From assembly GCA_945903645.1 (NCBI GenBank), contig CAMDOM010000001.1:118491-182490 (forward strand): a stretch of DNA of 64,000 nucleotides, given 5' to 3'. The stretch is from Chryseobacterium gleum (lineage in GTDB: Bacteria > Bacteroidota > Bacteroidia > UBA10329). The notes under the pieces were generated by a model, which saw nothing but the letters and a program-made list of their open reading frames with translations, searched no databases and was not told the origin of the DNA. This document shows positions 14,713 through 41,148 of the stretch, one piece after another. Position numbers and translations under genes: made by a program. Each line of letters begins with the position of its first letter. Position 1 is the stretch's first letter.

Positions 14713-16026
14713 GTGAACAGCAACAAACAAGAAATTGCCCTCTTTTGGTTTCGTAGAGACCTTCGTGTGAATGACAACGCAGCTTTATATCACGCACTTC
14801 GTTCTGGCTTGCCTGTTGTTCCAATCTTCATTTTTGACCAAGACATTTTAAATCGATTGGAGGACAAGCGAGATGCGCGCGTTCAATTTATACATCAAGC
14901 AATTGTTAAGCTAAAAGGCGATATCGAAGCTGCTGGTTCAACCCTTATTGTGCGGCACGGAAAGCCTTTTGATGTAATCAGCAACTTCCTTAATGAGTAC
15001 AACGTTCGGGAGGTGTACACCAATCACGACTACGAACCTTACGCCAAGCAGCGCGATGCTGCTATTGCAACCTTTCTTGCTCAAAAGAATAGTGCCTTTC
15101 ACACGTTTAAGGACCAATGTATTTTTGAAAAAGACGAAGTGCTAAAGGATGATGGGTTGCCATACACCGTTTTCACTCCTTACAGCAGAAAATGGAAAGC
15201 TAAACTCAATCCATTTTATTTAAAACCGTATCCCAATCACAAGTATTTGGATGGATTTGCCAAAATGCCGCATGCACCGTTGCTTTCTCTTGCTGCGCTA
15301 GGGTTTTTAGATTCCAGCATTCAATCGCCTTCCATGGAAGTAGGGGAGGAGGTCATTAAAAAGTATCATCTCACCCGCGACATTCCTTCAATTGCGGGAA
15401 CTTCTCGTCTAAGTGTTCATCTTCGTTTTGGAACAATAAGCATCCGTGCTTTAGCAAGTAAAGCTCAGCAGCTCAACGAAACGTATCTGAATGAGCTTAT
15501 TTGGAGAGATTTCTATATGATGATTCTATGGCATTTTCCGCATGTCGCTACATCTGCATTCAGACCTCAGTATGAGCGCATACAGTGGGAAACCAATACC
15601 AAGCATTTTGAGGCATGGTGTCACGGTCAAACTGGTTATCCCATTGTGGATGCAGGTATGCGCGAGTTAAATGCTACGGGCTTCATGCACAACCGTGTGC
15701 GTATGGTGGTGGCCAGTTTTCTCACCAAACACCTATTGCTTGATTGGCGGTGGGGGGAGGCATACTTCGCTTCTAAACTAATCGATTTTGATTTGAGTGC
15801 TAACAATGGCGGTTGGCAATGGGCTGCAGGTACAGGTTGCGATGCTGCGCCATATTTTCGTGTGTTTAGTCCCGATGCTCAAACCTTGAAGTTCGACCCG
15901 CAATTGAAGTACATCCGAAAGTGGGTTCCAGAGTTTCAGGAGCTTACATACACTCGCCCTATAGTTGACCATAAGTGGGCCAGAGAACGTGCACTTATCC
16001 GATACAAAGAAGGATTATCCAAATGA
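14713..16026 (+). CDS. deoxyribodipyrimidine photolyase / cryptochrome-family protein (GTG start)
   Basis: N-terminal FWFRRDLRVNDNAAL. FAD-binding domain TGYPIVDAGMRELNATGFMHNRVRMVVASFL...WGEAYF...NNGGWQWAAGTG. Size is 437 aa. Confidence 0.85.
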   Translation: MNSNKQEIALFWFRRDLRVNDNAALYHALRSGLPVVPIFIFDQDILNRLEDKRDARVQFIHQAIVKLKGDIEAAGSTLIVRHGKPFDVISNFLNEYNVREVYTNHDYEPYAKQRDAAIATFLAQKNSAFHTFKDQCIFEKDEVLKDDGLPYTVFTPYSRKWKAKLNPFYLKPYPNHKYLDGFAKMPHAPLLSLAALGFLDSSIQSPSMEVGEEVIKKYHLTRDIPSIAGTSRLSVHLRFGTISIRALASKAQQLNETYLNELIWRDFYMMILWHFPHVATSAFRPQYERIQWETNTKHFEAWCHGQTGYPIVDAGMRELNATGFMHNRVRMVVASFLTKHLLLDWRWGEAYFASKLIDFDLSANNGGWQWAAGTGCDAAPYFRVFSPDAQTLKFDPQLKYIRKWVPEFQELTYTRPIVDHKWARERALIRYKEGLSK

Positions 16027-16099
16027 TATAGTGGTGTAGACCAAGAAGGCCCATCATAAAACATGCTAGGCCCTCTTGTTTATACAATAAACTGAAGAC

Positions 16100-17893
16100 T
16101 TATTTATTTTTCTTCAAACTGTTTTCAATGTCTAATGCATCTTCAATCTCAATCACAGCGTTATTGAAACGTGCGGTAATTGCAGATTCTTTCACACCCA
16201 TGTTTTGAACTTCTCTTTGCAATTTCTCCGCCTCGTCTTTAGAAGAGAACGAACCAATGGTATACACTTTTACGCCACCTGTGGTCAATTTCATTTCTAC
16301 ACCATACTGACCAATTAGCTTAGACAACTTGTTAAGTTCAATACGCAAACGGTACTCCCTCAATTCAACACAGTAGGTAACCTCATCTTTATCCTCAAAT
16401 CCTTCAATAACCGGGCGTTCGTAGAACGTTTCACCCGGAGTTCCAAGAGCATTTAAGTCTTCAGCTACTTTGTTTACTGATTTTTCAGATACACCAAAAG
16501 CTTCTGCTAAACCTTCTTCGCGTAATTGATTTTGTTTTTTCTCCGCTTCAGAGAAATCGCTGTATGTACCAACGGTGAACACTGAAGTAGAATCATTGAT
16601 TTTACGTTCCACCAAACCAGGCATTTGGCTCAACTTCATTTTCAATTGAGTTGGGATGTCCTGATTTGTGAATGTTCCCAAGTGAACGGTGTAGTTAGGG
16701 TTCTTAACTTTTTGTGAATACAAGAAATCGCCAGAAACTTCGGTGCGTTTGAGAGAAACGGAATCTTTGCCAAATGATTTATAAATGTCTTGATAGCTTA
16801 ATGAAACCCCATCCGGATTAACTAAAGCACCTGGAGGGGTGTTCAATTGCTTGTCTTTAAAGTCAGCAATACCGTCATAGTCAAGGTCAAATGGACATCC
16901 CTTAGAATCTACTGGAATGCCAAGTGGAGTAGCAGAACATTGGTCCAAGAAATCGACAATACCATCGCTATCAGAGTCTTTATTTTCAAGTTCTGAAAAA
17001 TTTGAATAGTTTGCATTTTCCAAATCCAATTTTGGAGCTTTCTTTTTAAATGGGTCGAAACGATAGTACATAGAGAGACTGGTTATTAAAAAACCATCAC
17101 TCATTCCGCCTTCCGAAACATTGTCAATTAAATCTGTGGTTGTAAAGTAGTATGTTGCGCCTAGACGAATGGCCACCTTGCGCGAAGCATTAAAATCAAA
17201 ACCTAATCCTACTGGAAATGCAACTGTCGTAACAGGGGATTTACTCAGTTTCGTTTCATAATCATAATCGCGATAAATAACTTTCTTATCAGACGATTCT
17301 GAGGCTTCGCTCACATCGTAAATCAGTCCGTTGTTCCAATAATTATAAGTGCTTCCATTAGCATCTACCAAATCAGTATAAACATTATAATCAGTATAAC
17401 TGGCCCCCACGGAAATATATGGAGTCATTCCAACTGGGCTTCGCAACACATTATGAAAGTTGTAGGTTAAACTGAAACCAACGCCAAACATTTGAGCTTC
17501 AAAATTGCGATGGGTTCCGAAGTTGTTTTCGTTACCATTTAATGAGCCATACAAACCATCAATATTCAGTTCCAAATAGTTGGTAACGCTTGCACCTGCA
17601 CCAAAACCAAAGGCTGGTCGATTTCCAATGGTATGTACTGTAACGTTATCCTGATCTACAACCTCACCAAAGAATCGCACAATTCCAATGCCGCCATGCA
17701 CGTTGGCCATAAATCTATAAGGTTCTTTTTCTCTTGGAATTCTTACACTTTTCTCTTTGGTTGGTTTTTCTTCTTTCGTAGGTTCAGCAACAACATCTGA
17801 GGTGGTTTCTGTTGGAGTTTCAGAAGAAACCTGTCCAAATGCATTTAAATTGACATATAAAATGATAAGAAATAGCAGGGAAAAGTACTTCAT
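16100..17893 (-). CDS. outer-membrane beta-barrel protein with TSP type-3 Ca-binding repeat and two C-terminal SPOR-like domains (array member 1)
   Basis: Signal peptide. Gly/aromatic-rich beta-strand N-domain sharing ...YNYWNNG...RDYDYETKL... with the paralogs. TSP3 motif DSDSDGIVDFLDQCSATPLGIPVDSKGCPFDLDYDGIADFKD. C-terminal repeats YTVHLGTFTNQD...VFTVGTYSDFSEAEKKQNQL and YCVELREYRLRIE...VYTIGSFSSKDEAEKLQREV match the SPOR pattern Y-x-V-Q-x-G-x-F. Confidence 0.6.
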   Translation of the reverse strand: MKYFSLLFLIILYVNLNAFGQVSSETPTETTSDVVAEPTKEEKPTKEKSVRIPREKEPYRFMANVHGGIGIVRFFGEVVDQDNVTVHTIGNRPAFGFGAGASVTNYLELNIDGLYGSLNGNENNFGTHRNFEAQMFGVGFSLTYNFHNVLRSPVGMTPYISVGASYTDYNVYTDLVDANGSTYNYWNNGLIYDVSEASESSDKKVIYRDYDYETKLSKSPVTTVAFPVGLGFDFNASRKVAIRLGATYYFTTTDLIDNVSEGGMSDGFLITSLSMYYRFDPFKKKAPKLDLENANYSNFSELENKDSDSDGIVDFLDQCSATPLGIPVDSKGCPFDLDYDGIADFKDKQLNTPPGALVNPDGVSLSYQDIYKSFGKDSVSLKRTEVSGDFLYSQKVKNPNYTVHLGTFTNQDIPTQLKMKLSQMPGLVERKINDSTSVFTVGTYSDFSEAEKKQNQLREEGLAEAFGVSEKSVNKVAEDLNALGTPGETFYERPVIEGFEDKDEVTYCVELREYRLRIELNKLSKLIGQYGVEMKLTTGGVKVYTIGSFSSKDEAEKLQREVQNMGVKESAITARFNNAVIEIEDALDIENSLKKNK

Positions 17894-17931
17894 AATTTAA
17901 AAGGTTAGTTTTCTAAAATACGTCAAGTAGT

Positions 17932-19905
17932 TTAATCCTCGAAGAATAGGTCTATGAGATCATTAATGTCGCTTGTGGTATATTTTGATTTACCCGATTT
18001 GAATTCTGCAATGGCTCGGTTTACCTCATCAGGGGTTAGTTTTCCGTCTCCGCTATAATCAACCGATTGGAATTTTTTAACCAAGAATCGTTCATTGTCA
18101 GTAAGACCATCATCTTTATAGTTTTCCAGAATATTAAGTTTACCTTTTATGTAAACTGCCGAAGTACCTCCAAAGTCAACCACACGAGCATCCTCCATAT
18201 TTTCTTTGTAGAAATCTATCAAACCATAGACTTGACCTGCACTGAGGTTTGAATTCCCATCAACTGATTCTTCAATAGAGCGCAATACTTCATCTGCAGT
18301 AAGTAATCCATCATCATTAAAATCTACTGACTTGTAAACTGCTGGAATCAAATCACCAGTGTTTGAATTACGGCTAATGTTCAACTCTGTTTTCGAATCA
18401 ATCCTGCCATCATCTACCATTTTGCCATAAACCCGGTACGCTGCGTTGTACACTTCATCCACATTGGAAGCTTCTTTAGCAGTGCCTTTGAAAATTTCTT
18501 TCGCAATTTCGTCCATAAGAATGCTGGTTTCGGTAACCTTATTGGCATTCTGAGCAATGGAATTCATCATTTCTGATAATCGAGCTGCGTCAGTTTTATT
18601 AGGGGCAGTTGTCGAATTTTCATTGAGGTTTGACGTATTTTCTTTAACTGCACTTTCAGTTTTCGAGCTGGCAACCTCGGGTGCTGCAGTTAATTGGGAA
18701 TTTGCTTTTGATTGAGCAAAAGCTTTGGGTTGAATTTCGAGAATACCGCTTGGGTAGATACTATTCATTTTGGCCCTATTCGTTCCCACAGAATCCGAAT
18801 AGCTCTGTAACATCATTTCATCTGTAAGCCCAACTCCTTCAAGATTGGCAATCTTGTCAACACTTGTAAACTCTTCTTTGTCTCTAAAGTCTTCTACTAT
18901 ATCACGATCCGTGTCTACAGGGCAACCATTCTCATCCACAACTGCTCCTTCTGGAGTTTTTGCACACATATCATCAAAGTCATTTACGCCATCTGCGTCC
19001 GCATCTGCAAGAGAAAGTGCATAAAAGTCAAACTCCTCAAAGTAATTGGACTTCTCAGTTTTAGTATAACCACTTTTAACTCCAATGCTATACGCCACAG
19101 AAAGTGAAGTGTATAGGAACATATCGTTTGCTTTATTGCCTTGACGTGCTCCATTTCCTCTCCACGTAAAGTCGTCAATCAAATCAGTAAAGGTGTAATA
19201 GAATGAAGAACTTAATCGACCACTCATTTTTCTACCCATTTTGAAATCTAGACCTAGACTAACTGGAATCGAAAAAGTGAATAAATCATATTTTCCTAAG
19301 CCATCATTGTCCTGTTTTCTCAAATCTGTTTCGAAAGTGTAATCGCGTTGTAATGAAACCGCTTGATTAGCCATTTCACTATCCTCTGCAACATTCATAA
19401 TTGATCCGTCAGACCAATAATGGTACTCATTTCCATTAGCATCCTTCAAATCTGTTTTACTGTCAAAATGAATAAATGCAACTCCCACAGAGATGAATGG
19501 CTGAACAATTCCAGGCTTTTTGTAAAGGTGATTGAAGTTGTACGTTACCCCAACTCCGCCAATAAAAAGTTCTGATTTGAAGTTTAAGTTTCGGGTTGTC
19601 GTACGTTCGTTGACTGTAATATCACCGTAGATGATATTTAAATCGATGTCAAAATAGCGTGAGATATTTGCAGACGAACGCCCTTCAAATCCCCAACTGC
19701 TTGTGAACGGATGGTTAAGATTGTTGTCTTTTACGTCTCCGAGGTAAGTGAAGAAACCTGCTCCAACTCCAATTCGCGGAGCTAGAAGGGCGTCTTTACC
19801 GCGATTGTCGAGATAGTATATGGAGTCGCTCTGCGCAAAAGTGCTTACAGCACATGATATTACGAGAGAAAATGGAAGTAAAATTCTTATCATAGGGTAT
19901 TGCAA
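17932..19905 (-). CDS. outer-membrane beta-barrel / TSP3-repeat / C-terminal EF-hand protein (array member 2)
   Basis: Signal peptide. N-domain motifs ANGNEYHYWSDGSI...LQRDYTFETDLRK. TSP3 DADADGVNDFDDMCAKTPEGAVVDENGCPVDTDRD. Canonical EF-hand loops DFNDDGLLTADE and DYSGDGKLTPDE. The C-terminus is DLIDLFFED. Confidence 0.6.
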   Translation of the reverse strand: MQYPMIRILLPFSLVISCAVSTFAQSDSIYYLDNRGKDALLAPRIGVGAGFFTYLGDVKDNNLNHPFTSSWGFEGRSSANISRYFDIDLNIIYGDITVNERTTTRNLNFKSELFIGGVGVTYNFNHLYKKPGIVQPFISVGVAFIHFDSKTDLKDANGNEYHYWSDGSIMNVAEDSEMANQAVSLQRDYTFETDLRKQDNDGLGKYDLFTFSIPVSLGLDFKMGRKMSGRLSSSFYYTFTDLIDDFTWRGNGARQGNKANDMFLYTSLSVAYSIGVKSGYTKTEKSNYFEEFDFYALSLADADADGVNDFDDMCAKTPEGAVVDENGCPVDTDRDIVEDFRDKEEFTSVDKIANLEGVGLTDEMMLQSYSDSVGTNRAKMNSIYPSGILEIQPKAFAQSKANSQLTAAPEVASSKTESAVKENTSNLNENSTTAPNKTDAARLSEMMNSIAQNANKVTETSILMDEIAKEIFKGTAKEASNVDEVYNAAYRVYGKMVDDGRIDSKTELNISRNSNTGDLIPAVYKSVDFNDDGLLTADEVLRSIEESVDGNSNLSAGQVYGLIDFYKENMEDARVVDFGGTSAVYIKGKLNILENYKDDGLTDNERFLVKKFQSVDYSGDGKLTPDEVNRAIAEFKSGKSKYTTSDINDLIDLFFED

Positions 19906-19929
19906 CTTAGCGCTAAAAATAGATAAAGA

Positions 19930-21939
19930 TTACTCTTGGTCGAAATAGTAGTCAATTAGGTTTTGAATGTCTTCAACAGTCAATGTGCCATCACCATCAA
20001 AAAGGCTATCTATAAAGTAAAGCACTTCCGTTGCAGTGATGTTTCCATTCTCATCACGGTCGGCCCAATGGAAGGTGCCTGTAGCCTTTGGCGAAACCTG
20101 TTGTAAATCTTTTAAAGTGATTTGACCATTATTCGATGAAGTTTTTTCGTCTTGATAATTTTTGGATATACTCGAAGCGATGTTACCAGTTTTAGACGAT
20201 TTTGTTTGATTCGCTTGATTTTGATTTGATGAATTAGAAGTAGTGATTTCCTGATTGGACTGATTAGATTTAGTCTCATTCGGATTAGAAGAATTTACAT
20301 CTTCTGGTTTTAAATGTGCGTTTGTTTGTAACGACTTGTTTTCTTCCGAAGGAGTTAAAGTTGTATCTTTAATTGTCTGTTTAGCCTTGTCATTTTCAGC
20401 TAATGCAGCAGAATTACTTTCAGTGTTTTCCGCCCAAGTAGTTCTTGCTTTTTCTTCCGAAGTCAGCTCATTTGAATTCCTAGATTCGCCTGTTTTACCT
20501 TCATTGGAATTCTCTGAATCTCGACTCGCGGAAATTGACTTGACATTAGCGTCATTTTTAATGGGTGCAATATCTTTATCTGAGTCTTTCTTTGCCTGAC
20601 TGTTTTCGCTTAGACTATCTGGGAGTGATAAATTCTGATTTGTGCCTGTTACATTGGATTTCGTGCCATTTGCAAATTGAGTAATTTCCGCGCTGTTATT
20701 CTTGGTTTTAGTTAATTGTGTATTATTTTTTACAGTAGAGTCCGCAATGGATGTCGCATCAGTGCTTGCTTTAGAAGTAGTAATCACTACATCACCTTGC
20801 TCGTTATCAATGGATTTTTTATTGGCAATTGTATCGGAGTTCCCCTTAGATGTTACTTCAGCGTTTTCTGAAGAATTAACACTCACTGCACTGCTTTGAT
20901 TGTTTTCAGCCGATTGAATACTGGTTATTCCATTAGAGTTTCTGGTTGAAAGCTCATCCAAACTTCCTGAAGCGTTAACTAACTCAGACACTTCAGTTTC
21001 AGGTCTAGATGATTTGCTATTTGATTTTTCTACTGATTTATTAGAGCCCCAACGATTAGGTGTTGTGGTAGCCAACGTTTGCTCAGTGTCCCGAATACTA
21101 GTTGTACGCTTTGCGCCCAGAAACACATTAATTCCGATTGACCCAAAAATATGATTGTCGTTCCCACTTGCACTTTTGCGTGTTCCGATACTACCAGCAC
21201 CTGAATTATCCAGCATTTCTGAAAAGTTCAAAGCATAAGTAAATGCCGCATTCACACCAAAATGTTTGGTTATTTGAAAGCGAATCCCAGCATTGATGGG
21301 AATAGTGAAAGTAGTTTGTGGATATTTTCTTAATCCATCTAGGTTGGCGTCTCTTAAATCACTTTCGTAATTGAAATCACGCTGTAGAAGTACCGCAGAT
21401 TCAGCATAGGCATCATTTTCTGCTATGCTACGAATTGTTCCGTCCGTCCAATAGTTATATGTTTCTCCAGCAGATGATGTCAAGTCACCTTTGGAACGAA
21501 AAAACATTGCTCCAAGACCAAAACCAATATATGGTCGTATCAATTGCTTTCCTTGTGCGTTTGGTTTTAAAAGTGGATAGAAATTATATTCCACACAAAG
21601 CTGTTGGCTGAATAGGGATGTGCGATAATTTAAGTTATAAAACCCACGTATTTCTTCCCCGTAGACTGTTCCCGTAAATAGATTCAGAGAAACATTAAGG
21701 AACTTGGCTATTGGTTGCGTAATGTTCAGTTGGAAGCCAAACTGAGTAAAAGCACTTGGACCGGATTGGTTAAGTGCAACATCCGATAACATATTCACAA
21801 AACCAAGGTTTACACCTATTTCAGGTAGATTAATTTGTTTATTGTTTTTCGATGCAATGGTATCTATGCTCTGCGCATCCACATGGAAAGTGAAAATCAC
21901 AAGTGAAGCAACAATCCCAAAAAGACATGGGCTTTTCAT
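19930..21939 (-). CDS. outer-membrane beta-barrel protein with about 300-aa S/N/T/K-rich disordered region and C-terminal EF-hand module (array member 3)
   Basis: Signal peptide. N-domain SAGETYNYWTDGTIRSIAEN...LQRDFNYESDLRD. Long low-complexity Ser/Asn/Thr/Lys/Glu segment with no TSP3. C-terminal EF-hand loop DRDENGNITATE, then ...LIDYYFDQE. Confidence 0.55.
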   Translation of the reverse strand: MKSPCLFGIVASLVIFTFHVDAQSIDTIASKNNKQINLPEIGVNLGFVNMLSDVALNQSGPSAFTQFGFQLNITQPIAKFLNVSLNLFTGTVYGEEIRGFYNLNYRTSLFSQQLCVEYNFYPLLKPNAQGKQLIRPYIGFGLGAMFFRSKGDLTSSAGETYNYWTDGTIRSIAENDAYAESAVLLQRDFNYESDLRDANLDGLRKYPQTTFTIPINAGIRFQITKHFGVNAAFTYALNFSEMLDNSGAGSIGTRKSASGNDNHIFGSIGINVFLGAKRTTSIRDTEQTLATTTPNRWGSNKSVEKSNSKSSRPETEVSELVNASGSLDELSTRNSNGITSIQSAENNQSSAVSVNSSENAEVTSKGNSDTIANKKSIDNEQGDVVITTSKASTDATSIADSTVKNNTQLTKTKNNSAEITQFANGTKSNVTGTNQNLSLPDSLSENSQAKKDSDKDIAPIKNDANVKSISASRDSENSNEGKTGESRNSNELTSEEKARTTWAENTESNSAALAENDKAKQTIKDTTLTPSEENKSLQTNAHLKPEDVNSSNPNETKSNQSNQEITTSNSSNQNQANQTKSSKTGNIASSISKNYQDEKTSSNNGQITLKDLQQVSPKATGTFHWADRDENGNITATEVLYFIDSLFDGDGTLTVEDIQNLIDYYFDQE

Positions 21940-22019
21940 GGCCGTATCCTAGAGTTCAAATGAAAAAATAACCCCGCCAAAGCAGGGTTATTTACAGTTA
22001 TATATTTAAACAGGTTAAA

Positions 22020-23177
22020 TTACTGACCTGCAATATTCAAAGCTTCTTGCACTGTTATACGAACTCCATTGTTGTAGGCAGTTACGAATGGTCCAGCTAC
22101 ACCGTTTGTATCACGCAACTCATTGCTGTACGTTTTGGCAGGGCGGTATGAACCAAATTCACCAACAACATACTTGCTTAATCCTTCGTGATTTTCTACA
22201 GAAATGGCGTCTGAAATATTGTGTTTGGAAGCAAACAAAGCTGATTCTGTGCTTTTTGGTCCAGCTGCAATCTGAACTCGGAAAACTAATCCTGGTTTGC
22301 TTTTCAATTCAGAAGCACTAGAAGAAGCTCTGGCAGGTTGCGATTTAACAACTGGTTTGGATTCTTGTGCTTTAGCTTGTTCCGCTTGTTTGCGCTGAGC
22401 TTCTTGGTCTGCAGCAGCTTTGGCGTCTTGCGACTTCTTTACTTCGGTAGCGCGTTTTTCTTCTGCAACTTGTGCGTCTGCTGCAGAAGTGCTGCTGGCA
22501 GGTTGGCTTGAAGACTCTTGTGTTGAAGTTGACTCAGCTGCTGTGTTGGATGCTTCTTGTGCATTAGTATTAGTTGATTCCGCAGGTTTGGCTACTTCTT
22601 GAGATGTGGCTATTTCAGCAGGTTTAGCAGCCTCCTCGGCTTGTGCTGCAGCTCTAGTAGCCGCAGCAGCTTCCTCTTTACGTTTTTGGTCTTCCATTGC
22701 TTGGTTAGCAACAGCAGCGTTTTGTGATGCAGCGGTTGGGTCAGAAGAAACTACAATGATGTCCTTCGGAAGTACAAATTTTTCAGTTTCGTTATTACGA
22801 ATAAAGGAGAAGTTACCCTCCATAATTTGATTTCCGCTAACGCTTGCATCAACTACCACTTTATACGACACTTTTATGTCTGTAGTTGAAGGTAAGGCCA
22901 TCCATAGAAATTTCACTTTTCTATCCTTAAAAGAGAATGTTGAATTTGCACTTTCTCCTGGCATCGCTGTAAATCCAGTGGGTAAATCCTGCTGCAATTT
23001 TGCAAAACCAGTTACATCACCTTTGCTAATATTTAGCTCTACATTAAATTCACCTCCTGGCTTTACTGTAGGGGGAATCTTTGTGGTGACAGACACCTGA
23101 GCCAATAATGTGACTGTAGTAAGGCCGGCAAATACAATGGTAAGTAAAGATTTCTGTATCATTTCTTGAGATGTCAA
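22020..23177 (-). CDS. SPOR-domain protein with N-terminal beta-rich domain and Ala/Glu/Gln/Lys-rich linker
   Basis: Signal peptide/anchor, an N-domain of about 140 aa, and a roughly 150-aa A/E/Q/K/S low-complexity linker. The C-terminal roughly 75 aa (LVFRVQIAAGPKS...KYVVGEFGSYRPAKTYSNELRDT) match the SPOR peptidoglycan-binding pattern. Confidence 0.6.
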   Translation of the reverse strand: MTSQEMIQKSLLTIVFAGLTTVTLLAQVSVTTKIPPTVKPGGEFNVELNISKGDVTGFAKLQQDLPTGFTAMPGESANSTFSFKDRKVKFLWMALPSTTDIKVSYKVVVDASVSGNQIMEGNFSFIRNNETEKFVLPKDIIVVSSDPTAASQNAAVANQAMEDQKRKEEAAAATRAAAQAEEAAKPAEIATSQEVAKPAESTNTNAQEASNTAAESTSTQESSSQPASSTSAADAQVAEEKRATEVKKSQDAKAAADQEAQRKQAEQAKAQESKPVVKSQPARASSSASELKSKPGLVFRVQIAAGPKSTESALFASKHNISDAISVENHEGLSKYVVGEFGSYRPAKTYSNELRDTNGVAGPFVTAYNNGVRITVQEALNIAGQ

Positions 23178-23206
23178 TTTTACGGGGGCGAAGGTATTAT
23201 TATTTG

Positions 23207-24610
23207 TTATTGTTCAAAGAAGTAGTCAATTAACTCGGTAAGTTCAACTACTGTGACTTTTAATTCACCATCAAAGAACTGATCGATTGCTGTGTAAACT
23301 TCATCCACACTTATTTTGCCATTTCGATTGAAATCGAATGTTTTTAGGATTTGAGCACCTTCAACTGTTATTGAGGCTGTCTTTTCCTCTTCACGAGTTT
23401 TATAAAGTGCAATGAGTTCCGGATAAATTTCAAACATTTTAGCCCGAACGGTTCCTACGGTGTCCTTCGTTGGAATCATTTCATCAGTGTAACCAACGCC
23501 AACCATATTCACATTCAATTTAGCATCCGTAGCCGCCTCATCGTCCAAATGGTCTTCCACTCCATCTAAGTCTGAATCGGTAGGACAGCCAAATTCATCC
23601 ACTTTTGCTCCTTTTGGAGTTTCAGGACAGCGGTCGTTAATGTCTTGTATGCCATCTCCATCTGGATCACCATCTAGAGATTCAAATTCGAATGCTGCGA
23701 ATTGATTATCCTTGGTTTTATCTTTTTTAGGAGTGAAGAAATCGTAGTGATATGAAATCCCCGTGTACATAAAAAAATCATTTGAAGCATCGCCAACCCT
23801 ACCTGGCTTACCATCTCGAGTATAACCATCAATTAAGTCAGTAATTGTGTAGTGGAAAGTTGTGGTTAGCTTGATGTTTGATCGCGGAGATACTTTGAAG
23901 TCTAACCCAAACGTGAATGGAATGCTTAGCGCAAACTCAGGATAGTTGCCAAGGCTATCAAGGTTGGACTTACGCATATCTGTTTCATAGTCATAATCTC
24001 TACGAAGTATTTCTGCGTTTTCAGAGTTTAATGCGCCTTCTGCAGCGCTGCGCAATGTTCCATCACTCCAACTATTGTAAAGACGGCCTTCAGAATCCCG
24101 CAAATCACTTTTTGTAGTAAAGTTAAACGCTCCGATACCCACAGCAATAAATGGGCTTAAAAATCGCTTTGGAGGTAGAATACCAGCAAAATTGTAGGTT
24201 CCATGGATATCAAATGCAATTAAGTCAGTTGAGAAATTCACATTTCTTTCAATTGAACGCTCGTGCGCTGATATGCGACCATATGTTACATTGAATTGCA
24301 TTCCAAAAGAAGGCGTGAAATTCTTGGTAGCTACGAACTGCAACCCCAAGTTATGAAGCATCACATTGGAACGGTCATTATTTGTGATTTCTCCGAAATA
24401 ATTCATAAAACCAGCCCCTACCCCAATAATTGGATTATATATTGTATTCTCTTTGTTCCATAGTTTGCGTTCTGCATTCTTGGAATCGCGAATTGCTTTT
24501 TTCGCTTCCGCTTCTGCGCTAGCAGCAACTTTGGCAGTGTCAGACTGTGCCATTCCAACAAAAGGCAAGCAACACAAGAGTAAAAGATAAAGAGTTCGTA
24601 GGTTCATCAA
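23207..24610 (-). CDS. outer-membrane beta-barrel / TSP3-repeat / C-terminal EF-hand protein (array member 4)
   Basis: Signal peptide. N-domain SEGRLYNSWSDGTLRSAAEG...LRRDYDYETDMRK. TSP3 DGDPDGDGIQDINDRCPETPKGAKVDEFGCPTDSDLDGVEDHLDDE. EF-hand loop DFNRNGKISVDE. The C-terminus is ELIDYFFEQ. Confidence 0.6.
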   Translation of the reverse strand: MMNLRTLYLLLLCCLPFVGMAQSDTAKVAASAEAEAKKAIRDSKNAERKLWNKENTIYNPIIGVGAGFMNYFGEITNNDRSNVMLHNLGLQFVATKNFTPSFGMQFNVTYGRISAHERSIERNVNFSTDLIAFDIHGTYNFAGILPPKRFLSPFIAVGIGAFNFTTKSDLRDSEGRLYNSWSDGTLRSAAEGALNSENAEILRRDYDYETDMRKSNLDSLGNYPEFALSIPFTFGLDFKVSPRSNIKLTTTFHYTITDLIDGYTRDGKPGRVGDASNDFFMYTGISYHYDFFTPKKDKTKDNQFAAFEFESLDGDPDGDGIQDINDRCPETPKGAKVDEFGCPTDSDLDGVEDHLDDEAATDAKLNVNMVGVGYTDEMIPTKDTVGTVRAKMFEIYPELIALYKTREEEKTASITVEGAQILKTFDFNRNGKISVDEVYTAIDQFFDGELKVTVVELTELIDYFFEQ

Positions 24611-24613
24611 GGT

Positions 24614-26032
24614 TTACTGCTCGAAGAAGAAATCAATCAAATCGTGTAACTTATCTGCTGAGAAATCCAATTCGCCCTCGAAGAAAGCGTCAATGGCCCA
24701 TGTAATCTCATCGGCTGAAATGAATCCATCATTATCTCTATCAACAACTACGAAATCGCCAAGGGTGGTAGCTGCGCGATAGGTTTCTGGAGCTTCCAAC
24801 GAATATAAGCTTTTGGCGGGTTTGCCTTGAATACTCGGGAAAGCCAAATAACGTACGTCCCTGTTTACTGCTATCGTGTCAGATTTTAGTAGCTCATCTT
24901 CATTCACTGTCACACCAAGTTTGTCAACCACTGCATCTGCAGCGCTATTACCTTCTTGGTCGTTGTAGTCGGCAATACCATCACCATCGCCATCTTTCGG
25001 GCAACCGAACAAATCCACTTTTACGCCATCTGGAGTGCCAGCACACAAATCTTCCAAATTCCTTACTCCATCACCGTCATCATCTCCTTTATCCAACGCC
25101 AAGAAGTCAATAGCATCAAACTGTGAAGGTGGTTTTTGGGTCTTTTTCGCAGCGATATTGTACCCAAATCCTATAGATGTAAACAAGATGTGATCGGATT
25201 GAGAACCATTCTCAAAATTGTCTAAGTAGTCCGTCAAACTCCAATAGTACGTGGCTTTAACATCTCCGTAGAATTTATTGGAAAACTTATAACGTAATCC
25301 AACTCCAAAAGGAATTGTAATGGCATTTCTTGAATACGTACCTCCTGAAACAGCTGGGTCGTTGGAATAGGCTTCTTTTAACTCAGTTTCGTATTTGCGG
25401 TCAAGCGATAGTGTTTGGGCCACACCCAAATTCTCAGGGTTTTTAACTCGATCGCGAATAGACCCATCATCCCAATAGTTGTAAGCGCGGCCTTGATTAT
25501 CGAGTAGGTCAGCTTTGGGAGTGAAGTTTACAATATATCCTACACCACCAAATAAGTATGGGGAAAATTTAGAAGAGCGATTGATGAACAAATTATTGTC
25601 TAAATAGACCTTCACATGCATGTCAATTTGCATGAACGTGGTTTCCACATTGCGATTTAATAATGCAACAGGAGAACGTTCGTTTTCAGATACTTGTCCA
25701 TACAGGAAACCCAATGAAAAACCAACTGCACTAAATGTACGATGCTCCAAACCACCATAAATACCCCAACGCCAGTTGGTAGTATTGTAAACTTTCAAAT
25801 CTTTCGAAATATCGTCTGCCATCAACGATAAATTTCCTCCACCTATATATATGGAAGGCATTTTATTGTCATAAAATGGAGGACGGGGCTTTTTTTCTTT
25901 CAGAACTTTAGGCTCCTTTTCAGGTTTTTCCGTCTTAGCTTTCTCTTTCGTCTTGCCTTCTACTTTTTCCTGCGCGGCTAGAGGAAGTGCTAGATTTGTT
26001 AAGAAAATACAAAGTAAAAGTTTAAGCTTCAT
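24614..26032 (-). CDS. outer-membrane beta-barrel / TSP3-repeat / C-terminal EF-hand protein (array member 5)
   Basis: Signal peptide. N-domain NQGRAYNYWDDGSIRDRV...LDRKYETELKE. TSP3 DKGDDDGDGVRNLEDLCAGTPDGVKVDLFGCPKDGDGDGIADYNDQE. EF-hand loop DRDNDGFISADE. The C-terminus is DLIDFFFEQ. A 3-bp gap separates it from the next gene. Confidence 0.6.
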   Translation of the reverse strand: MKLKLLLCIFLTNLALPLAAQEKVEGKTKEKAKTEKPEKEPKVLKEKKPRPPFYDNKMPSIYIGGGNLSLMADDISKDLKVYNTTNWRWGIYGGLEHRTFSAVGFSLGFLYGQVSENERSPVALLNRNVETTFMQIDMHVKVYLDNNLFINRSSKFSPYLFGGVGYIVNFTPKADLLDNQGRAYNYWDDGSIRDRVKNPENLGVAQTLSLDRKYETELKEAYSNDPAVSGGTYSRNAITIPFGVGLRYKFSNKFYGDVKATYYWSLTDYLDNFENGSQSDHILFTSIGFGYNIAAKKTQKPPSQFDAIDFLALDKGDDDGDGVRNLEDLCAGTPDGVKVDLFGCPKDGDGDGIADYNDQEGNSAADAVVDKLGVTVNEDELLKSDTIAVNRDVRYLAFPSIQGKPAKSLYSLEAPETYRAATTLGDFVVVDRDNDGFISADEITWAIDAFFEGELDFSADKLHDLIDFFFEQ

Positions 26033-38019: not shown

Positions 38020-41000
38020 GTGATTTTTCTGAACCGTTTTCTTTCACTTCGATTTTTTGCCGCTGTGTTGCTCTGTTTCAGCGGGATAGGTGCGATTGGG
38101 CAAACCTATGACTTCCAAAATTTCACTACCGAAAATGGGTTATCCAAATCTCAAATACTTGCACTTTTTCAGGGCGAGGAAGGCGAAATGTGGATGGGAA
38201 CCAATGCTGGTGGAGTGAACCGCTATAATGGAGCGGGCTTTAGCTATCTGAACAAGGAAAATGGCTTGCCCGACAATACCGTTTTCGCATTTGCAAAAGA
38301 CAAGCTTGGGCGATTACTTATAGGCACCAACAATGGCCTAACGGTAATGAATGGCATCCGCATCGATACCGTTACAATTGCGCAAGGGCTAACGCACGAG
38401 GCCATTCATAGCCTTCATGTGGCCAAGAATGGAACCATTTGGGTGGGCACGCGCAAAGGAGTTTGTACCCTAAGTGGACTCAAAATCACACCCTTTTTGG
38501 GCGATACCAATTTGCTTAATTCTACGGTGCTCAACATAAGAGAAGGTGCCGATGGCGGCATTTGGTTTTGTACCGTTCAGCATGGATTGTTCCGATTTGA
38601 AGGAGGGAAATTGAAGCAATTTAGTGTGGAAAGTGGTCTGCTTCGCAATTACGTGTATGATGCAATGCCGCAGCAAGGGGGCAAGGCTTGGATTTTTGGA
38701 TACGATGGATTGTACCACACGCAGGGAGACACTGCCAAGCTACAAACCGTGGCCGAAGTGCCCAAGGGCACTTCGTTCTATACCTATCAGCGCGATCGCT
38801 CGGGCAATATCTGGATAGGAACATCGCGTGGAGTATTGAAATTCAAAGACAATAGCTACACCCTATTGAACGAGTCGAATGGGCTTGTGAACAACGATAT
38901 ATGGAAAATACTGCAAGACCGTGAAGGCAATTTGTGGTTTGGGTCGAAGGTGAATGGCGTTTCGAAATTGAATAGCGAACGCTTTAAGCTTTTTGGCTTG
39001 GATTCGCTTACGAAACAAGATGTGAATGCAGTGCTTAAAGACAGCAAATCGAGGGTGTGGCTTGGTACTAAAAAAGGGCTTGTGCTTTGGGGCGACAATA
39101 AAGTGCAACGGGTATTTAAGTTTTCGGATGGATTGTCTACCGAAATTGTAAATGATTTGAAGGAGGATGTTAGCGGCAATATTTTCATTGCCACAAATTA
39201 TGGCCTCACCATTTATGACGGTAAAAAACTTAAGGCTATTGAATCGCCTGATGAGATTCTGAACGAATGCTACACCATATTGTTGGAAGATTCGAATGTG
39301 TGGGTGGGCACCAAGGGAGGAGTTGCACGCTATGAAAACGGAAAGCTAGAAGCGGTAAAAGAAGCTACCACATTTAGGCGCGAGGTTTTTCATGTCTGCA
39401 AACTGGAGGATGGAATTTGGTTTGCCTACGAAGATGGTTTGCTACATTATGATGGTAAGACATTTCGGCAGTTGAAGGCGAAGGATGGCTTTACCGATGG
39501 GCGAACCCGAAGTGTAATAAATGGGCCAGATGGCCATCTGTGGTTTGGTAATACAGATGGAGTATTTAAGTGGGATGGAAAAAAACTGACTCGATTTGAC
39601 CAAAACAACGGATTGATGGCAAATGGTGTCAATTCGTTGATTTTTGACACGAAAGGAAATTTGTGGGTGGGCCAATCGAAGGGTTTGTGCAAAATGACCT
39701 TTAGTGGCGATAGCCTACAATCGGTGATTCGCTACTCGCGAGAGCAAGGCTTTTTGGGGCTTGATTGTAACACAAATTCTATCATGATAGATGAGGATGG
39801 TGTGCTATGGGTTGGCACATCAAACGGGCTTATTTCGTTCGACCCGCGGTTGGACAAAGGCGAATACCACAAGCCGTTGACCCGCATCAACGAAGTGAAA
39901 CTGTATTCGCAATCGGTAAACTGGCAACTGTTTACTGATTCGCTAACAGACACAGGTCTTCCAAGAAACTTGGAACTGGACTACGATAAGAACCACCTCA
40001 CTTTTGTGTTTACGGGAGTTAGCCTTACCACACCTGAAAGCATCAACTACATCTATTTCTTAAAGGGATTTGATGATGAGTGGTCGCCTGTGAGCAACAA
40101 CAACGAGGCTACCTACGCCAACCTGCCGCCCGGAAGTTACACTTTTATGGTGCGGTCGGGCTATGGCAACGAAATATGGGATAACGAAGCTGTTGAATTC
40201 AGTTTTACCATTAAGCCGCCATTTTATCGCACCACGTGGTTCTATATCTTAATTGGATTGATAGCTGCGGGTATTGCCTATTCCTATTATGCCATTCGGA
40301 GGGCCAATGTGAAAATCACCGCTCAAAATGCATTTATCGAAGGGCAAAAAGGTGAGATTGAGAAGAAGAAGGACGAGATTGAGAAGAAAAACCGGGAGAT
40401 GACCGATAGCATCAACTATGCGAGCACTATTCAATCGGCCATATTGCCATCGGACGAACTTTGGTTTAAGTTGTTGCCCGATTCGTTTGTGTTTTTTCAA
40501 CCTAAAGATATTGTAAGTGGCGATTTTTATTGGTTGGAAAGCCGCGATTCGGAAGTGTTTTTTAGCGCAGTAGACTGCACTGGGCATGGAGTGCCAGGGG
40601 CATTGATGAGTATTATTGGAAACAATGGGTTGAACCAAGCCGTGAACGAACACAGGTTAATGAATCCTGCCGAAATCCTGAATTACCTCAGCGTGAGCGT
40701 CAACGAATCGCTACGCAAATCAGAGCGCAGCAATTACGTGAAAGACGGGATGGACTTGGCGTTTTGTCGGCTCAATTTGCAGACCCGCGTGTTGCATTAC
40801 GCTGGCGCCTACAACCCATTGGTTATTATTCGCAATGGAGAATTAATGGTAACCAAAGCCGACCGCTTGGCCATAGGCTCTATGGACAATGTGGAAAAGA
40901 GTTTTATCAATCACGAGCTGCAATTGCAACCGGGCGATTGTGTGTATGTGTATTCAGATGGTTATGCCGACCAGTTTGGCGGGCCGCTGGGCAAGAAGCT

Positions 41001-41148
41001 GAAATCGGCACCGATGCTCAACAAACTGGCAGAAATAAGTAGCCTCCCCATGACCAAGCAGGGCAATGAACTGCGTAAGTTCTTTCTAGAATGGAAGGGC
41101 CAGCTAGAACAGGTGGATGATATTTGTATTATCGGGGTGCGGGTTTAG
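38020..41148 (+). CDS. periplasmic two-component-regulator propeller (Reg_prop repeats plus Y_Y_Y) sensor fused via a TM helix and coiled coil to a SpoIIE/PP2C-family Ser/Thr phosphatase (GTG start)
   Basis: About 12 repeats of the G-x-W-x-G-T-x-x-G-L pattern (WMGTNAGGVNRY, IWVGTRKGV, IWIGTSRGVLKF ...). A Y_Y_Y block, a TM helix WFYILIGLIAAGIAYSYYAI, and the coiled coil EIEKKKDEIEKKNRE. PP2C/SpoIIE motifs SGDFYW and DCTGHGVPGALMS, with a terminal acidic motif. Confidence 0.8.
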   Translation: MIFLNRFLSLRFFAAVLLCFSGIGAIGQTYDFQNFTTENGLSKSQILALFQGEEGEMWMGTNAGGVNRYNGAGFSYLNKENGLPDNTVFAFAKDKLGRLLIGTNNGLTVMNGIRIDTVTIAQGLTHEAIHSLHVAKNGTIWVGTRKGVCTLSGLKITPFLGDTNLLNSTVLNIREGADGGIWFCTVQHGLFRFEGGKLKQFSVESGLLRNYVYDAMPQQGGKAWIFGYDGLYHTQGDTAKLQTVAEVPKGTSFYTYQRDRSGNIWIGTSRGVLKFKDNSYTLLNESNGLVNNDIWKILQDREGNLWFGSKVNGVSKLNSERFKLFGLDSLTKQDVNAVLKDSKSRVWLGTKKGLVLWGDNKVQRVFKFSDGLSTEIVNDLKEDVSGNIFIATNYGLTIYDGKKLKAIESPDEILNECYTILLEDSNVWVGTKGGVARYENGKLEAVKEATTFRREVFHVCKLEDGIWFAYEDGLLHYDGKTFRQLKAKDGFTDGRTRSVINGPDGHLWFGNTDGVFKWDGKKLTRFDQNNGLMANGVNSLIFDTKGNLWVGQSKGLCKMTFSGDSLQSVIRYSREQGFLGLDCNTNSIMIDEDGVLWVGTSNGLISFDPRLDKGEYHKPLTRINEVKLYSQSVNWQLFTDSLTDTGLPRNLELDYDKNHLTFVFTGVSLTTPESINYIYFLKGFDDEWSPVSNNNEATYANLPPGSYTFMVRSGYGNEIWDNEAVEFSFTIKPPFYRTTWFYILIGLIAAGIAYSYYAIRRANVKITAQNAFIEGQKGEIEKKKDEIEKKNREMTDSINYASTIQSAILPSDELWFKLLPDSFVFFQPKDIVSGDFYWLESRDSEVFFSAVDCTGHGVPGALMSIIGNNGLNQAVNEHRLMNPAEILNYLSVSVNESLRKSERSNYVKDGMDLAFCRLNLQTRVLHYAGAYNPLVIIRNGELMVTKADRLAIGSMDNVEKSFINHELQLQPGDCVYVYSDGYADQFGGPLGKKLKSAPMLNKLAEISSLPMTKQGNELRKFFLEWKGQLEQVDDICIIGVRV

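What the first reader, a model, noticed from the sequence alone, without database searches (positions are those of the whole stretch)
16100..26032. Ten-kb tandem array of five paralogous OM beta-barrel/TSP3 proteins whose peptidoglycan-binding OmpA domain is replaced by EF-hand or SPOR modules
Five consecutive co-directional genes (16100..17893, 17932..19905, 19930..21939, 23207..24610, 24614..26032) share a signal peptide and a Gly/aromatic-rich beta-barrel-like N-domain. Conserved blocks such as (A/S/N)xG..YN(Y/S)W.DG(S/T)(I/L)R and (L/R)(Q/R)RD(Y/F)..E(T/S)(D/E)(L/M)R recur in all of them. The canonical Bacteroidota OmpA-family architecture is beta-barrel, then thrombospondin type-3 Ca-binding repeat (D-x-D-x-DG-x-x-D-x-x-D-x-CP-x-TP-x-G-x-x-VD-x-x-GCP), then a C-terminal OmpA peptidoglycan-binding domain. 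Here the barrel and the TSP3 repeat are present, but the OmpA domain is missing in every copy. Four copies instead end in one or more perfect EF-hand loops (for example DFNRNGKISVDE, DRDNDGFISADE) followed by a conserved tail ...EL..LIDYFFEQ. One copy (16100..17893) ends in two SPOR-like domains. A separate SPOR-domain protein (22020..23177) is embedded in the array. asnB and lpdA lie immediately upstream on the same strand with small gaps. This could be a Ca-responsive envelope-tethering or surface-lattice system. I do not recognise this domain combination (OM barrel + TSP3 + terminal EF-hand) as a described family.
Basis: partly seen in the sequence, partly recalled or inferred. Interest (0 to 1): 0.8.

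Follow-up and report, generated by a model that had tools for sequence, protein, structure and literature searches.

The report
Outer-membrane barrels with calcium or SPOR tails
This is an ancient, conserved gene cluster of uncultured Flavobacteriales that encodes five OmpA-like outer-membrane barrel proteins whose periplasmic tails end in a calcium-binding EF-hand module or in SPOR cell-wall-binding domains instead of the usual OmpA domain, plus a partner SPOR protein; it is probably an undescribed way of tying the outer membrane to the cell wall.

Summary
Six co-directional minus-strand genes sit at the stated coordinates. Five are paralogues (pairwise BLASTP E 2e-85 to 4e-15). Each has a signal peptide and an 8-stranded outer-membrane barrel, shown by an AlphaFold model and Foldseek matches to OmpA, Ail, NspA and OmpW. 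None has an OmpA_C domain. Four end in a canonical EF-hand loop plus a conserved ...LIDYFFEQ C-terminus, and one ends in two SPOR domains.

- Copy C has no TSP3 repeat.
- The barrel is of the DUF6089/PorG type, not the OmpA type.
- The embedded gene S is a CnaA/CLIPPER-like beta-sandwich, a helical linker and a divergent SPOR domain.
- The lpdA/asnB linkage is not conserved.

The array is not a recent amplification. The same order (E-D-S-C-B-A) recurs in 13 complete related loci with position-specific orthology, and simpler 2- or 3-gene versions (S plus an EF-tail and/or SPOR-tail barrel gene) are widespread in Bacteroidota metagenomes. In 53 of 68 S loci a barrel gene lies immediately downstream.

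No paper or curated family describes this architecture. My best reading is a non-covalent, calcium-stabilised tether between outer membrane and peptidoglycan, possibly septum-directed. It is a new variant of the OmpA/Pal/RlpA kind. The function is inferred, not shown.

The parts
24614..26032 (-). Gene E: signal peptide, K/E-rich N-extension, 8-stranded barrel with conserved loop insert, TSP3 with Cys330/Cys344, single C-terminal EF-hand module (24617-24772)
   Evidence: position-specific orthologues at 55-82% identity in L001-L004, L006, L009, L010
23207..24610 (-). Gene D: signal peptide, helix 24-55, barrel strands 61-289 (window 23744-24430) with a 57-residue conserved insert between strands 5 and 6 (23936-24106), TSP3 311-358 (23537-23680, Cys328/Cys342), EF-hand module 416-467 (23210-23365)
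   Evidence: AF2 model, pLDDT 78.8; Foldseek to OmpA/Ail/NspA/OmpW; DUF6089 23.3 bits against a gathering score of 23.2, TSP_3 22.5 bits; PorG 72 bits against a cut-off of 130
22020..23177 (-). Gene S: signal peptide (or signal anchor), CnaA/CLIPPER-like beta-sandwich residues 29-143 (22749-23093), A/S/E/Q-rich helical or disordered linker 146-292, divergent SPOR domain 292-385 (22023-22304)
21966..21993 (-). Terminator-like hairpin (12-bp stem, then a T-run) in the S-C intergenic gap; possible boundary between transcription units E-D-S and C-B-A
   Evidence: consensus scan only
19930..21939 (-). Gene C: barrel, then about 325 residues of S/N/T-rich low-complexity linker (20110-21084) in place of TSP3, then one EF-hand module (19933-20091)
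   Evidence: orthologues range from 583 to 1246 aa; distant orthologues at this position keep TSP3
17932..19905 (-). Gene B: barrel, one TSP3 motif (Cys314/Cys328), linker, two EF-hand modules (18190-18336 and 17935-18090)
   Evidence: the 'barrel-tsp-eftail-eftail' architecture is conserved at this position in all complete arrays
16100..17893 (-). Gene A: barrel (17024-17704), two TSP3 motifs (16844-16996, Cys319/Cys333), two SPOR domains (16493-16705 and 16118-16390)
   Evidence: Pfam SPOR 32.4 bits, 2 stretches; NCBIfam RlpA/MPL36 SPOR stretches; orthologues at 49-62% identity occupy the last position of the arrays

Best explanation
The locus encodes a conserved Bacteroidota envelope module made of two kinds of protein.

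Barrel proteins. These are small 8-stranded outer-membrane beta-barrels of the DUF6089/PorG branch. Each barrel carries a conserved 57-residue insert in what should be a surface loop. The periplasmic C-terminal tail carries a disulfide-locked TSP3 calcium-binding repeat and ends in one of two ways. It ends either in SPOR domains, which bind peptide-free ('denuded') peptidoglycan glycan strands that are enriched at the division septum, or in a roughly 45-residue module made of one canonical EF-hand loop plus a pseudo-loop and a strictly C-terminal ...LIDYFFEQ helix.

Protein S. This is a secreted protein with a stalk-like beta-sandwich, a long helical linker and its own SPOR domain.

Proposed mechanism (inferred). 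The barrels fix the complex in the outer membrane. A binds peptidoglycan directly, and S binds it too. The EF-hand tails of B-E, kept calcium-loaded by periplasmic Ca2+, act as rigid Ca-dependent interaction modules that join the EF-tail barrels to the same peptidoglycan-bound assembly. The result would be a non-covalent link between outer membrane and cell wall that does the job of OmpA/Pal, possibly concentrated at the septum.

In this lineage the barrel gene was multiplied long ago into five specialised paralogues in a fixed order, E-D-S-C-B-A.

Shown: architecture, fold, motif conservation, synteny. Inferred: periplasmic location of the tails, peptidoglycan binding, Ca binding, the tether function and any contact between the proteins.
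For: - Barrel fold: AF2 predicts 8 strands and Foldseek matches OmpA-TM, Ail, NspA, OmpW, OmpX and OprF-N.
- Barrel family: sub-threshold PorG and DUF6089/OMP_b-brl hits in all five copies.
- TSP3: the motif DxDxDGxxDxxD with an invariant Cys pair is kept across 43 homologues, and the same stretch is shared at about 55% identity with OMP_b-brl+TSP_3+OmpA peptidoglycan anchors.
- SPOR: A passes the Pfam gathering score. The C-domain of S aligns to it at 97% hhalign probability, with the glycan-binding-strand Gln invariant in 89 of 89 homologues. A Bacteroidota SPOR domain (CHU2221) binds denuded glycans with Kd about 1 uM (10.1101/2022.07.01.498525).
- EF loop: positions 1 and 12 are invariant, and 3, 5, 6 and 8 follow the canonical pattern in most sequences. 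The profile matches calmodulin-type loops in the PDB.
- Gene linkage, seeded on S: 53 of 68 loci have a barrel-TSP3 gene immediately downstream on the same strand (26 EF-tail, 19 SPOR-tail, 8 cut off by the contig end or unassigned).
- Gene linkage, seeded on the barrel: all 10 loci have S adjacent.
- The full six-gene order and position-specific orthology are conserved.
Against: - There is no experimental data of any kind and no expression data.
- S pairs with either tail type, and 15 of 68 S loci have no adjacent barrel gene. S therefore also functions on its own, and a specific contact between EF tail and S is not indicated.
- The two SPOR domains of the window's protein A carry His and Glu where the conserved beta-1 Gln sits in most homologues. 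Their glycan binding may be weakened.
- The EF module's partner is unknown, and its C-terminal half has no match in the PDB.
- Periplasmic orientation of the tails is inferred from the general topology of 8-stranded barrels, not tested.
- Whether the genome also has ordinary OmpA/Pal tethers cannot be seen from a 64-kb window.
Confidence: 0.5

Rival explanations
1. Cohesin-dockerin-like assembly. The beta-sandwich of S is a receptor that captures the Ca-loaded EF-hand/LIDYFFEQ tails of B-E. The EF-tail barrels would then be tethered to peptidoglycan indirectly through the SPOR domain of S, while A is tethered directly.
Confidence: 0.15
2. The proteins are PorG-like accessory barrels of the type IX secretion or gliding machinery, anchoring a periplasmic ring or motor component rather than the cell wall.
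For: All five barrels hit the NCBIfam T9SS_PorG model (E 8e-8 to 6e-20). The organism has T9SS-type cargo or adhesin genes (a SprB-repeat/PKD protein at 49320-52160; a Por_Secre_tail gene next to L089).
Against: Scores are 32-72 bits against a cut-off of 130. PorG is a barrel-only protein encoded in a conserved cluster with uppS and outer-membrane-protein biogenesis genes (Skp, BAM complex) (PMC12365241), and none of these is near the array. No T9SS core gene is syntenic in any of the roughly 90 loci where neighbours were listed. SPOR tails point to peptidoglycan.
Confidence: 0.08
3. The proteins form a periplasmic calcium store or sensor, or act as an outer-membrane stabiliser. On this view the acidic TSP3 and EF-hand tails, and the Asp-rich surface loop, mainly bind divalent cations to buffer Ca2+ or bridge LPS, with no specific protein partner.
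For: Each EF-tail protein has 2-4 predicted Ca sites. The conserved insert DLxDxxGxxYNxWxDG in the predicted surface loop is Asp-rich and invariant across paralogues.
Against: This does not explain the strict conservation of the non-liganding half of the module and of the C-terminal FFEQ. It does not explain the fixed gene order with S and a SPOR-tail barrel, or the maintenance of five position-specific paralogues.
Confidence: 0.15
4. The proteins form a surface lattice or act as adhesins, with the tails exposed outside the cell.
For: The S sandwich resembles stalk domains of fibrillar adhesins and pilins. C carries a long S/N/T-rich linker of variable length.
Against: Both termini of 8-stranded barrels lie in the periplasm (established topology of OmpA, OmpX and Ail, the best structural matches). 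SPOR domains act on peptidoglycan. There is no T9SS C-terminal signal or other export signal on the tails.
Confidence: 0.03

Closest known systems
Bacteroidota OmpA-family proteins with the architecture OMP_b-brl + TSP_3 repeats + OmpA_C (PF13505 + PF02412 + PF00691), e.g. hits P0516-P0535
   Same: Signal peptide, 8-stranded outer-membrane barrel, and a periplasmic tail with a Cys-containing TSP3 Ca-binding repeat (about 55% identity over that stretch). The presumed role is linking the outer membrane to peptidoglycan.
   Different: No OmpA_C domain. The barrel is of the DUF6089/PorG branch and carries a 57-residue conserved loop insert. The tail ends in SPOR or in an EF-hand module. The genes are clustered with S.
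PorG (PGN_0297), the 8-stranded outer-membrane barrel of the type IX secretion system (NCBIfam NF052316; Pfam DUF6089)
   Same: Nearest sequence family of the barrel. Also a small outer-membrane barrel that anchors a periplasmic structure.
   Different: Below the family cut-off. PorG has no tail and no loop insert, and it lies in a cluster with uppS and outer-membrane-protein biogenesis genes (Skp, BAM). The proteins here have 180-400-residue tails and a different, conserved context.
E. coli SPOR proteins, especially RlpA (an outer-membrane lipoprotein with a C-terminal SPOR domain) and DamX/DedD/FtsN
   Same: A membrane-anchored protein that reaches peptidoglycan through a C-terminal SPOR domain. 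Like RlpA, protein A is anchored in the outer membrane. S has the linker-plus-SPOR layout of DamX (its best PDB sequence hit).
   Different: The anchor is a beta-barrel rather than a lipid or an inner-membrane helix. There is no lytic transglycosylase (DPBB) domain. SPOR domains are duplicated, and the proteins are combined with TSP3 and with EF-hand paralogues.
The four recognised outer-membrane tether systems, Lpp, Pal, OmpA and OmpM (10.1101/2021.05.31.446380)
   Same: An outer-membrane-anchored protein with a periplasmic domain that binds the cell wall. OmpM is likewise a barrel fused to a non-OmpA wall-binding domain (SLH).
   Different: The wall-binding domain would be SPOR, which is specific for denuded glycan. 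Most paralogues carry no recognisable wall-binding domain at all, only a Ca-binding module.

Membership tests
OmpA family (outer-membrane barrel + OmpA_C peptidoglycan anchor) | N-terminal 8-stranded outer-membrane beta-barrel | tested here: met
   AF2 predicts 8 strands. Foldseek matches 9fzd OmpA at E 8.6e-10 with TMt 0.69, and also Ail, NspA, OmpW and OmpX.
OmpA family (outer-membrane barrel + OmpA_C peptidoglycan anchor) | C-terminal OmpA_C-like domain (PF00691) | tested here: not met
   No PF00691 hit at E<=1 in any of the six proteins. The D model has only helices after the TSP3 region.
OmpA family (outer-membrane barrel + OmpA_C peptidoglycan anchor) | TSP3 Ca-binding repeats between the barrel and the C-domain (Bacteroidota subtype) | tested here: met
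   Present in A, B, D and E, absent in C. The same stretch is shared with PF13505+PF02412+PF00691 proteins.
T9SS PorG (NF052316) | Score at or above the curated cut-off of 130 bits | tested here: not met
   32-72 bits.
T9SS PorG (NF052316) | Barrel-only protein encoded in the conserved cluster with uppS and outer-membrane-protein biogenesis genes (Skp, BAM) | tested here: not met
   The cluster is described in PMC12365241. The window's neighbours are photolyase, asnB, lpdA and other housekeeping genes. The proteins carry long tails.
Pfam DUF6089 (PF19573) | Gathering score of 23.2 bits | tested here: inconclusive
   D scores 23.3 bits (just passes) and B 17.7. A, C and E show only OMP_b-brl below threshold. 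Many orthologues carry precomputed PF19573.
SPOR domain proteins (PF05036) | SPOR domain by sequence or profile, with a beta-alpha-beta-beta-alpha-beta fold | tested here: met
   A scores 32.4 bits against a gathering score of 21, in 2 stretches. S is not found by Pfam, but hhalign gives probability 97.1% and E 5.4e-11 to A-type SPOR. S also has the modelled b-a-b-b-a-b fold at pLDDT >90 and PDB hits to DamX and CwlC.
SPOR domain proteins (PF05036) | Binding to denuded peptidoglycan glycans and septal localisation | not testable with these tools
   The beta-1 Gln is invariant in S homologues (89 of 89). It is replaced by His/Glu in the window's protein A.
EF-hand Ca-binding proteins | Canonical 12-residue loop (D-x-[DNS]-x-[DNSG]-G-x-[ILV]-x-x-x-E) flanked by helices | tested here: met
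   Regex and alignment. Helices flank the loop in the model. The profile matches calmodulin loops. Pfam EF-hand_6 passes the gathering score in C (25.3 against 25); the other copies are just below threshold.
EF-hand Ca-binding proteins | Ca2+ binding | not testable with these tools
   Only the conservation of ligand positions is available.
Cohesin-dockerin systems | Dockerin: duplicated 22-residue Ca-loop/helix segments (PF00404) | tested here: not met
   No Dockerin hit. There is one canonical loop per module, and the second loop is degenerate.
Cohesin-dockerin systems | Cohesin-fold receptor | tested here: inconclusive

The most novel reading that the evidence does not exclude
This could be a fifth, previously unrecognised class of tether between outer membrane and cell wall, after Lpp, Pal, OmpA and OmpM. 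It would be a multi-protein Bacteroidota system in which barrel-anchored SPOR domains and a secreted SPOR/stalk protein grip denuded septal glycans. Paralogous barrels would join the complex through a new Ca-dependent C-terminal EF-hand docking module. Outer-membrane attachment, and perhaps outer-membrane constriction at division, would then depend on calcium.
Probability: 0.25. Interest if true: 0.75.

Novelty: new variant of a known kind. Interest (0 to 1): 0.55.

Why it matters
Attachment of the outer membrane to the cell wall is essential for envelope stability, and current surveys list only four systems. A conserved barrel-SPOR fusion would add a tether that recognises denuded, septum-enriched glycan. 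That would offer a direct handle on how Bacteroidota pull their outer membrane inward at division.

The EF-hand/LIDYFFEQ module would be a new bacterial periplasmic Ca-dependent module with a testable partner. The cluster is widespread in environmental Flavobacteriales/Bacteroidota, all members are annotated as hypothetical, and I found no cultured or named host. A single genetic study would therefore annotate hundreds of genes.

Tried and rejected
1. I searched 1.84 billion representative proteins with the 52-residue EF-module profile, to ask whether the module occurs on non-barrel proteins. The output was swamped by multi-EF-hand proteins that sum many loops (40,540 hits; the top 150 are all long repeat proteins matched only over profile positions 2-30). 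It gave no answer.
2. The afdb50 fold library was unavailable, so I could not name cultured organisms that carry S-like proteins.
3. The exact-sequence contig look-up for the 100%-identical S protein P0121 returned nothing. Cluster look-up shows only that the window comes from a 194,556-bp NCBI/ENA contig, with no name.
4. I considered CHU2221, the one studied Bacteroidota SPOR protein, as a possible homologue. It is 249 aa with SPOR at residues 161-249, which is a different architecture.
5. I considered a functional link to asnB/lpdA (the single-operon idea). I rejected it because the adjacency is absent in L002-L004 and L088-L091.
6. I considered recent tandem amplification or a repeat artefact. 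I rejected it: there is no DNA-level repeat, paralogues are only 25-40% identical, and orthology is position-specific.
7. Literature searches for DUF6089, for TSP3 + EF-hand + outer membrane, for SPOR + barrel and for SPOR + thrombospondin found nothing relevant.


Full report
OBSERVATION

| Gene | Coordinates | Length |
|---|---|---|
| E | 24614-26032 | 472 aa |
| D | 23207-24610 | 467 aa |
| S | 22020-23177 | 385 aa |
| C | 19930-21939 | 669 aa |
| B | 17932-19905 | 657 aa |
| A | 16100-17893 | 597 aa |

They are transcribed in the order E-D-S-C-B-A. Upstream, asnB (TIGR01536, 467 bits) and lpdA (TIGR01350, 573 bits) lie on the same strand. Intergenic gaps are 3-82 nt.

E, D, C, B and A are paralogues well beyond chance: pairwise BLASTP E-values run from 2e-85 (B/D) to 4e-15 (A/C, C/E) at 25-40% identity. 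There is no DNA-level repeat.

DOMAINS

Pfam finds no OmpA_C in any copy at E<=1.

The N-domains give weak OMP_b-brl and DUF6089 hits (D just passes the DUF6089 gathering score). All five hit the NCBIfam T9SS_PorG barrel model, at 32-72 bits against a cut-off of 130.

An AlphaFold2 model of D, built on 43 homologues (pLDDT 78.8), shows:
- a signal helix and an extra helix at residues 24-55;
- eight long strands between residues 61 and 289;
- a 57-residue insert between strands 5 and 6;
- a coil region that holds the TSP3 motifs;
- a C-terminal helical bundle.

TSP3 motifs (DxDxDGxxDxxD) with a Cys pair 14 residues apart are present in A, B, D and E. Both the motifs and the Cys pair are missing in C, which has about 325 residues of S/N/T-rich low-complexity sequence instead.

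Canonical EF loops occur once in C, D and E and twice in B. Across the 28 aligned modules (four from the window, 24 from homologues) the consensus is DxNxDGxISxxEVYxAIDxFFDGELDxxxxxxxxLIDYFFEQ-COOH. Loop positions 1 and 12 and one Phe of the terminal FF pair are invariant. Only the first half matches anything in the PDB, namely calmodulin-type loops. The second half looks like a degenerate pseudo-loop plus a terminal helix.

A has two SPOR domains (Pfam 32.4 bits against a gathering score of 21).

GENE S

Pfam sees nothing in S, but the AF2 model has two confident domains (pLDDT >90). These are a beta-sandwich (residues 29-143) and a C-terminal beta-alpha-beta-beta-alpha-beta domain (297-382), joined by an A/S/E/Q-rich helical or disordered linker.

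The C-domain is a SPOR domain, on four lines of evidence:
- The only PDB profile hits are the DamX and CwlC SPOR domains.
- hhalign against the SPOR region of A-type proteins gives 97.1% probability, E 5.4e-11.
- My HMM of this domain cross-detects the SPOR domains of A-type proteins.
- The beta-1 motif YRVQIAAG keeps its Gln in 89 of 89 homologues.

COMPARATIVE GENOMICS

This is the most informative result. The same six genes in the same order, with the same tail types at each position, recur in 13 complete loci (L001-L004, L009, L010 and L015, plus L088, L090 and L091 and three more). Partial arrays were also recovered.

Each protein in these arrays is most similar to the window protein at the same position (for example E:508 against next best 181, and B:710 against 256). 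The exception is the fast-evolving position C in the most distant arrays. The five-fold expansion is therefore old and has been maintained.

In distant arrays position C still carries TSP3, so the window lineage lost it. C orthologues range from 583 to 1246 aa.

Simpler versions exist. One is a 3-gene form: EF-tail barrel, S, SPOR-tail barrel (L007, L063, L080, L089). The other is a 2-gene form: S plus one barrel. In these forms S has 2-3 sandwich domains.

Among 68 metagenome loci retrieved with the S profile that had room downstream, the gene immediately downstream of S on the same strand was:

| Downstream gene | Loci |
|---|---|
| Barrel-TSP3, EF tail | 26 |
| Barrel-TSP3, SPOR tail | 19 |
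| Barrel-TSP3, cut off or unassigned | 8 |
| No barrel gene | 15 |

That is 53 of 68 with a barrel gene. Fourteen of the 15 without a downstream barrel gene have none on either side; in the nine I inspected, mostly marine, S sits next to housekeeping genes such as recA. The fifteenth, L029, has a barrel gene upstream instead.

All 10 barrel-seeded loci have S adjacent.

lpdA/asnB adjacency is limited to the closest relatives (L001, L006). A 12-bp-stem terminator-like hairpin sits between S and C, so a single lpdA-to-A operon is unlikely.

WHAT IT IS NOT

It is not PorG. The scores are below the cut-off, the proteins have extra tails and an insert, and the array lies outside the conserved cluster with uppS and outer-membrane-protein biogenesis genes (Skp, BAM) where porG is found (PMC12365241; window context).

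It is not an OmpA-family member in the strict sense, because the defining OmpA_C domain was tested and is absent. Canonical OMP_b-brl+TSP_3+OmpA proteins do turn up in the profile search, but they share only the TSP3 stretch (10-16% coverage, about 55% identity).

MECHANISM (inference)

The termini of 8-stranded barrels are periplasmic, so the tails should be in the periplasm. SPOR domains, which act on peptidoglycan, fit that. By the same rule, the conserved insert (D residues 169-225) would be a surface loop.

SPOR domains bind denuded glycans, which are enriched at the septum, and a Bacteroidota SPOR domain does so with Kd about 1 uM (10.1101/2022.07.01.498525). Protein A is therefore most simply a barrel-anchored peptidoglycan tether. 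It is analogous to OmpA or to the outer-membrane lipoprotein RlpA, and S is a second peptidoglycan-bound component.

The EF-tail paralogues lack any wall-binding domain. Yet their non-liganding residues and their extreme C-terminus are strictly conserved, which argues for a protein-protein interaction module rather than mere cation binding. Its partner is unknown.

I considered S as a cohesin-like receptor. The pairing statistics and the generic nature of the fold match do not favour a specific contact between S and the EF tails.

External Ca2+ is likely to saturate EF and TSP3 sites, so 'Ca-stabilised' is more conservative than 'Ca-responsive'.

NOVELTY

No paper in the searchable library mentions DUF6089 or this domain combination. 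Surveys of outer-membrane tethers list Lpp, Pal, OmpA and OmpM only (10.1101/2021.05.31.446380). Every database name is 'hypothetical' or an automatic label such as 'FtsN', 'DamX', 'opacity protein-like' or 'Ca2+-binding EF-hand superfamily'. All named hosts are uncultured Flavobacteriales, Bacteroidia or Bacteroidota.

I rate it a new variant of a known kind: an OmpA-like outer-membrane anchor with different periplasmic heads, organised in a conserved multi-gene cluster. Interest is 0.55. The architecture and synteny are solid and undescribed. The function rests entirely on domain logic.

Noticed in passing
window 21966-21993 (-): Strong terminator-like hairpin (12-bp stem, 5 GC pairs, 4-nt loop, then TTTTCATTT) in the 80-nt gap between S and C. 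It suggests two transcription units, E-D-S and C-B-A.
   Followed up: partly
window 23936-24106 (-), D residues 169-225, and the equivalent region in all five paralogues: A 57-residue insert between barrel strands 5 and 6 that is absent from PorG. It carries the family's most conserved motifs (K-x-DL-x-D-x-x-G-x-x-YN-x-W-x-DG...RDY-x-YETDLR). By standard barrel topology it is a surface loop. A surface loop this conserved and this Asp-rich is unusual and unexplained.
   Followed up: partly
window 20110-21084 (-), C residues 286-610: An S/N/T/K-rich low-complexity linker replaces TSP3 in copy C. Orthologues at this position range from 583 to 1246 aa (L015, L001), and distant arrays still have TSP3 here (L088, L090, L091).
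   Followed up: partly
window 16118-16705 (-), the two SPOR domains of A: The beta-1 glycan-binding Gln, invariant in S homologues and present in most A-type SPOR domains, reads as His (YTVHLGTF) and Glu (YCVELREY) in the window's protein A. Its SPOR domains may bind more weakly or differently.
   Followed up: partly
window 16000-26000 versus the flanks: The array has lower G+C (38-41%) than the surrounding genes (44-50%). This is probably a composition effect of the low-complexity and Asn/Asp/Lys-rich proteins rather than recent transfer, given the conserved synteny.
   Followed up: no
window 19852-19905 (-), N-terminus of B: The signal peptide of B contains L-V-I-S-C, a possible lipobox, before the usual ...TFA-Q site. 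B might be lipidated, unlike its paralogues. I did not check the orthologues.
   Followed up: no
L007 5550-6257 and L089 809-1516: In both 3-gene versions of the cluster where annotated neighbours were listed (L007, L089), a LOG-family gene (Lysine_decarbox/LDcluster4) lies immediately upstream. This may be a conserved neighbour in those lineages.
   Followed up: no
window 49320-52160 (+): A 946-aa protein with SprB repeats and PKD domains (gliding-adhesin-like). It suggests that the organism has a type IX secretion or gliding apparatus.
   Followed up: no
window 38020-41148 (+): A 1042-aa protein that combines Reg_prop beta-propellers, a Y_Y_Y domain and a C-terminal SpoIIE/PP2C phosphatase, where the usual partner would be a histidine kinase.
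   Followed up: no
window 22749-23093 (-), the S sandwich: The best structural match is the isopeptide-bonded CLIPPER/DUF11 domain. S homologues have invariant Lys (K52, K87, K89) and Asn (N129) residues and a nearly invariant Asp (D110).
   Followed up: no
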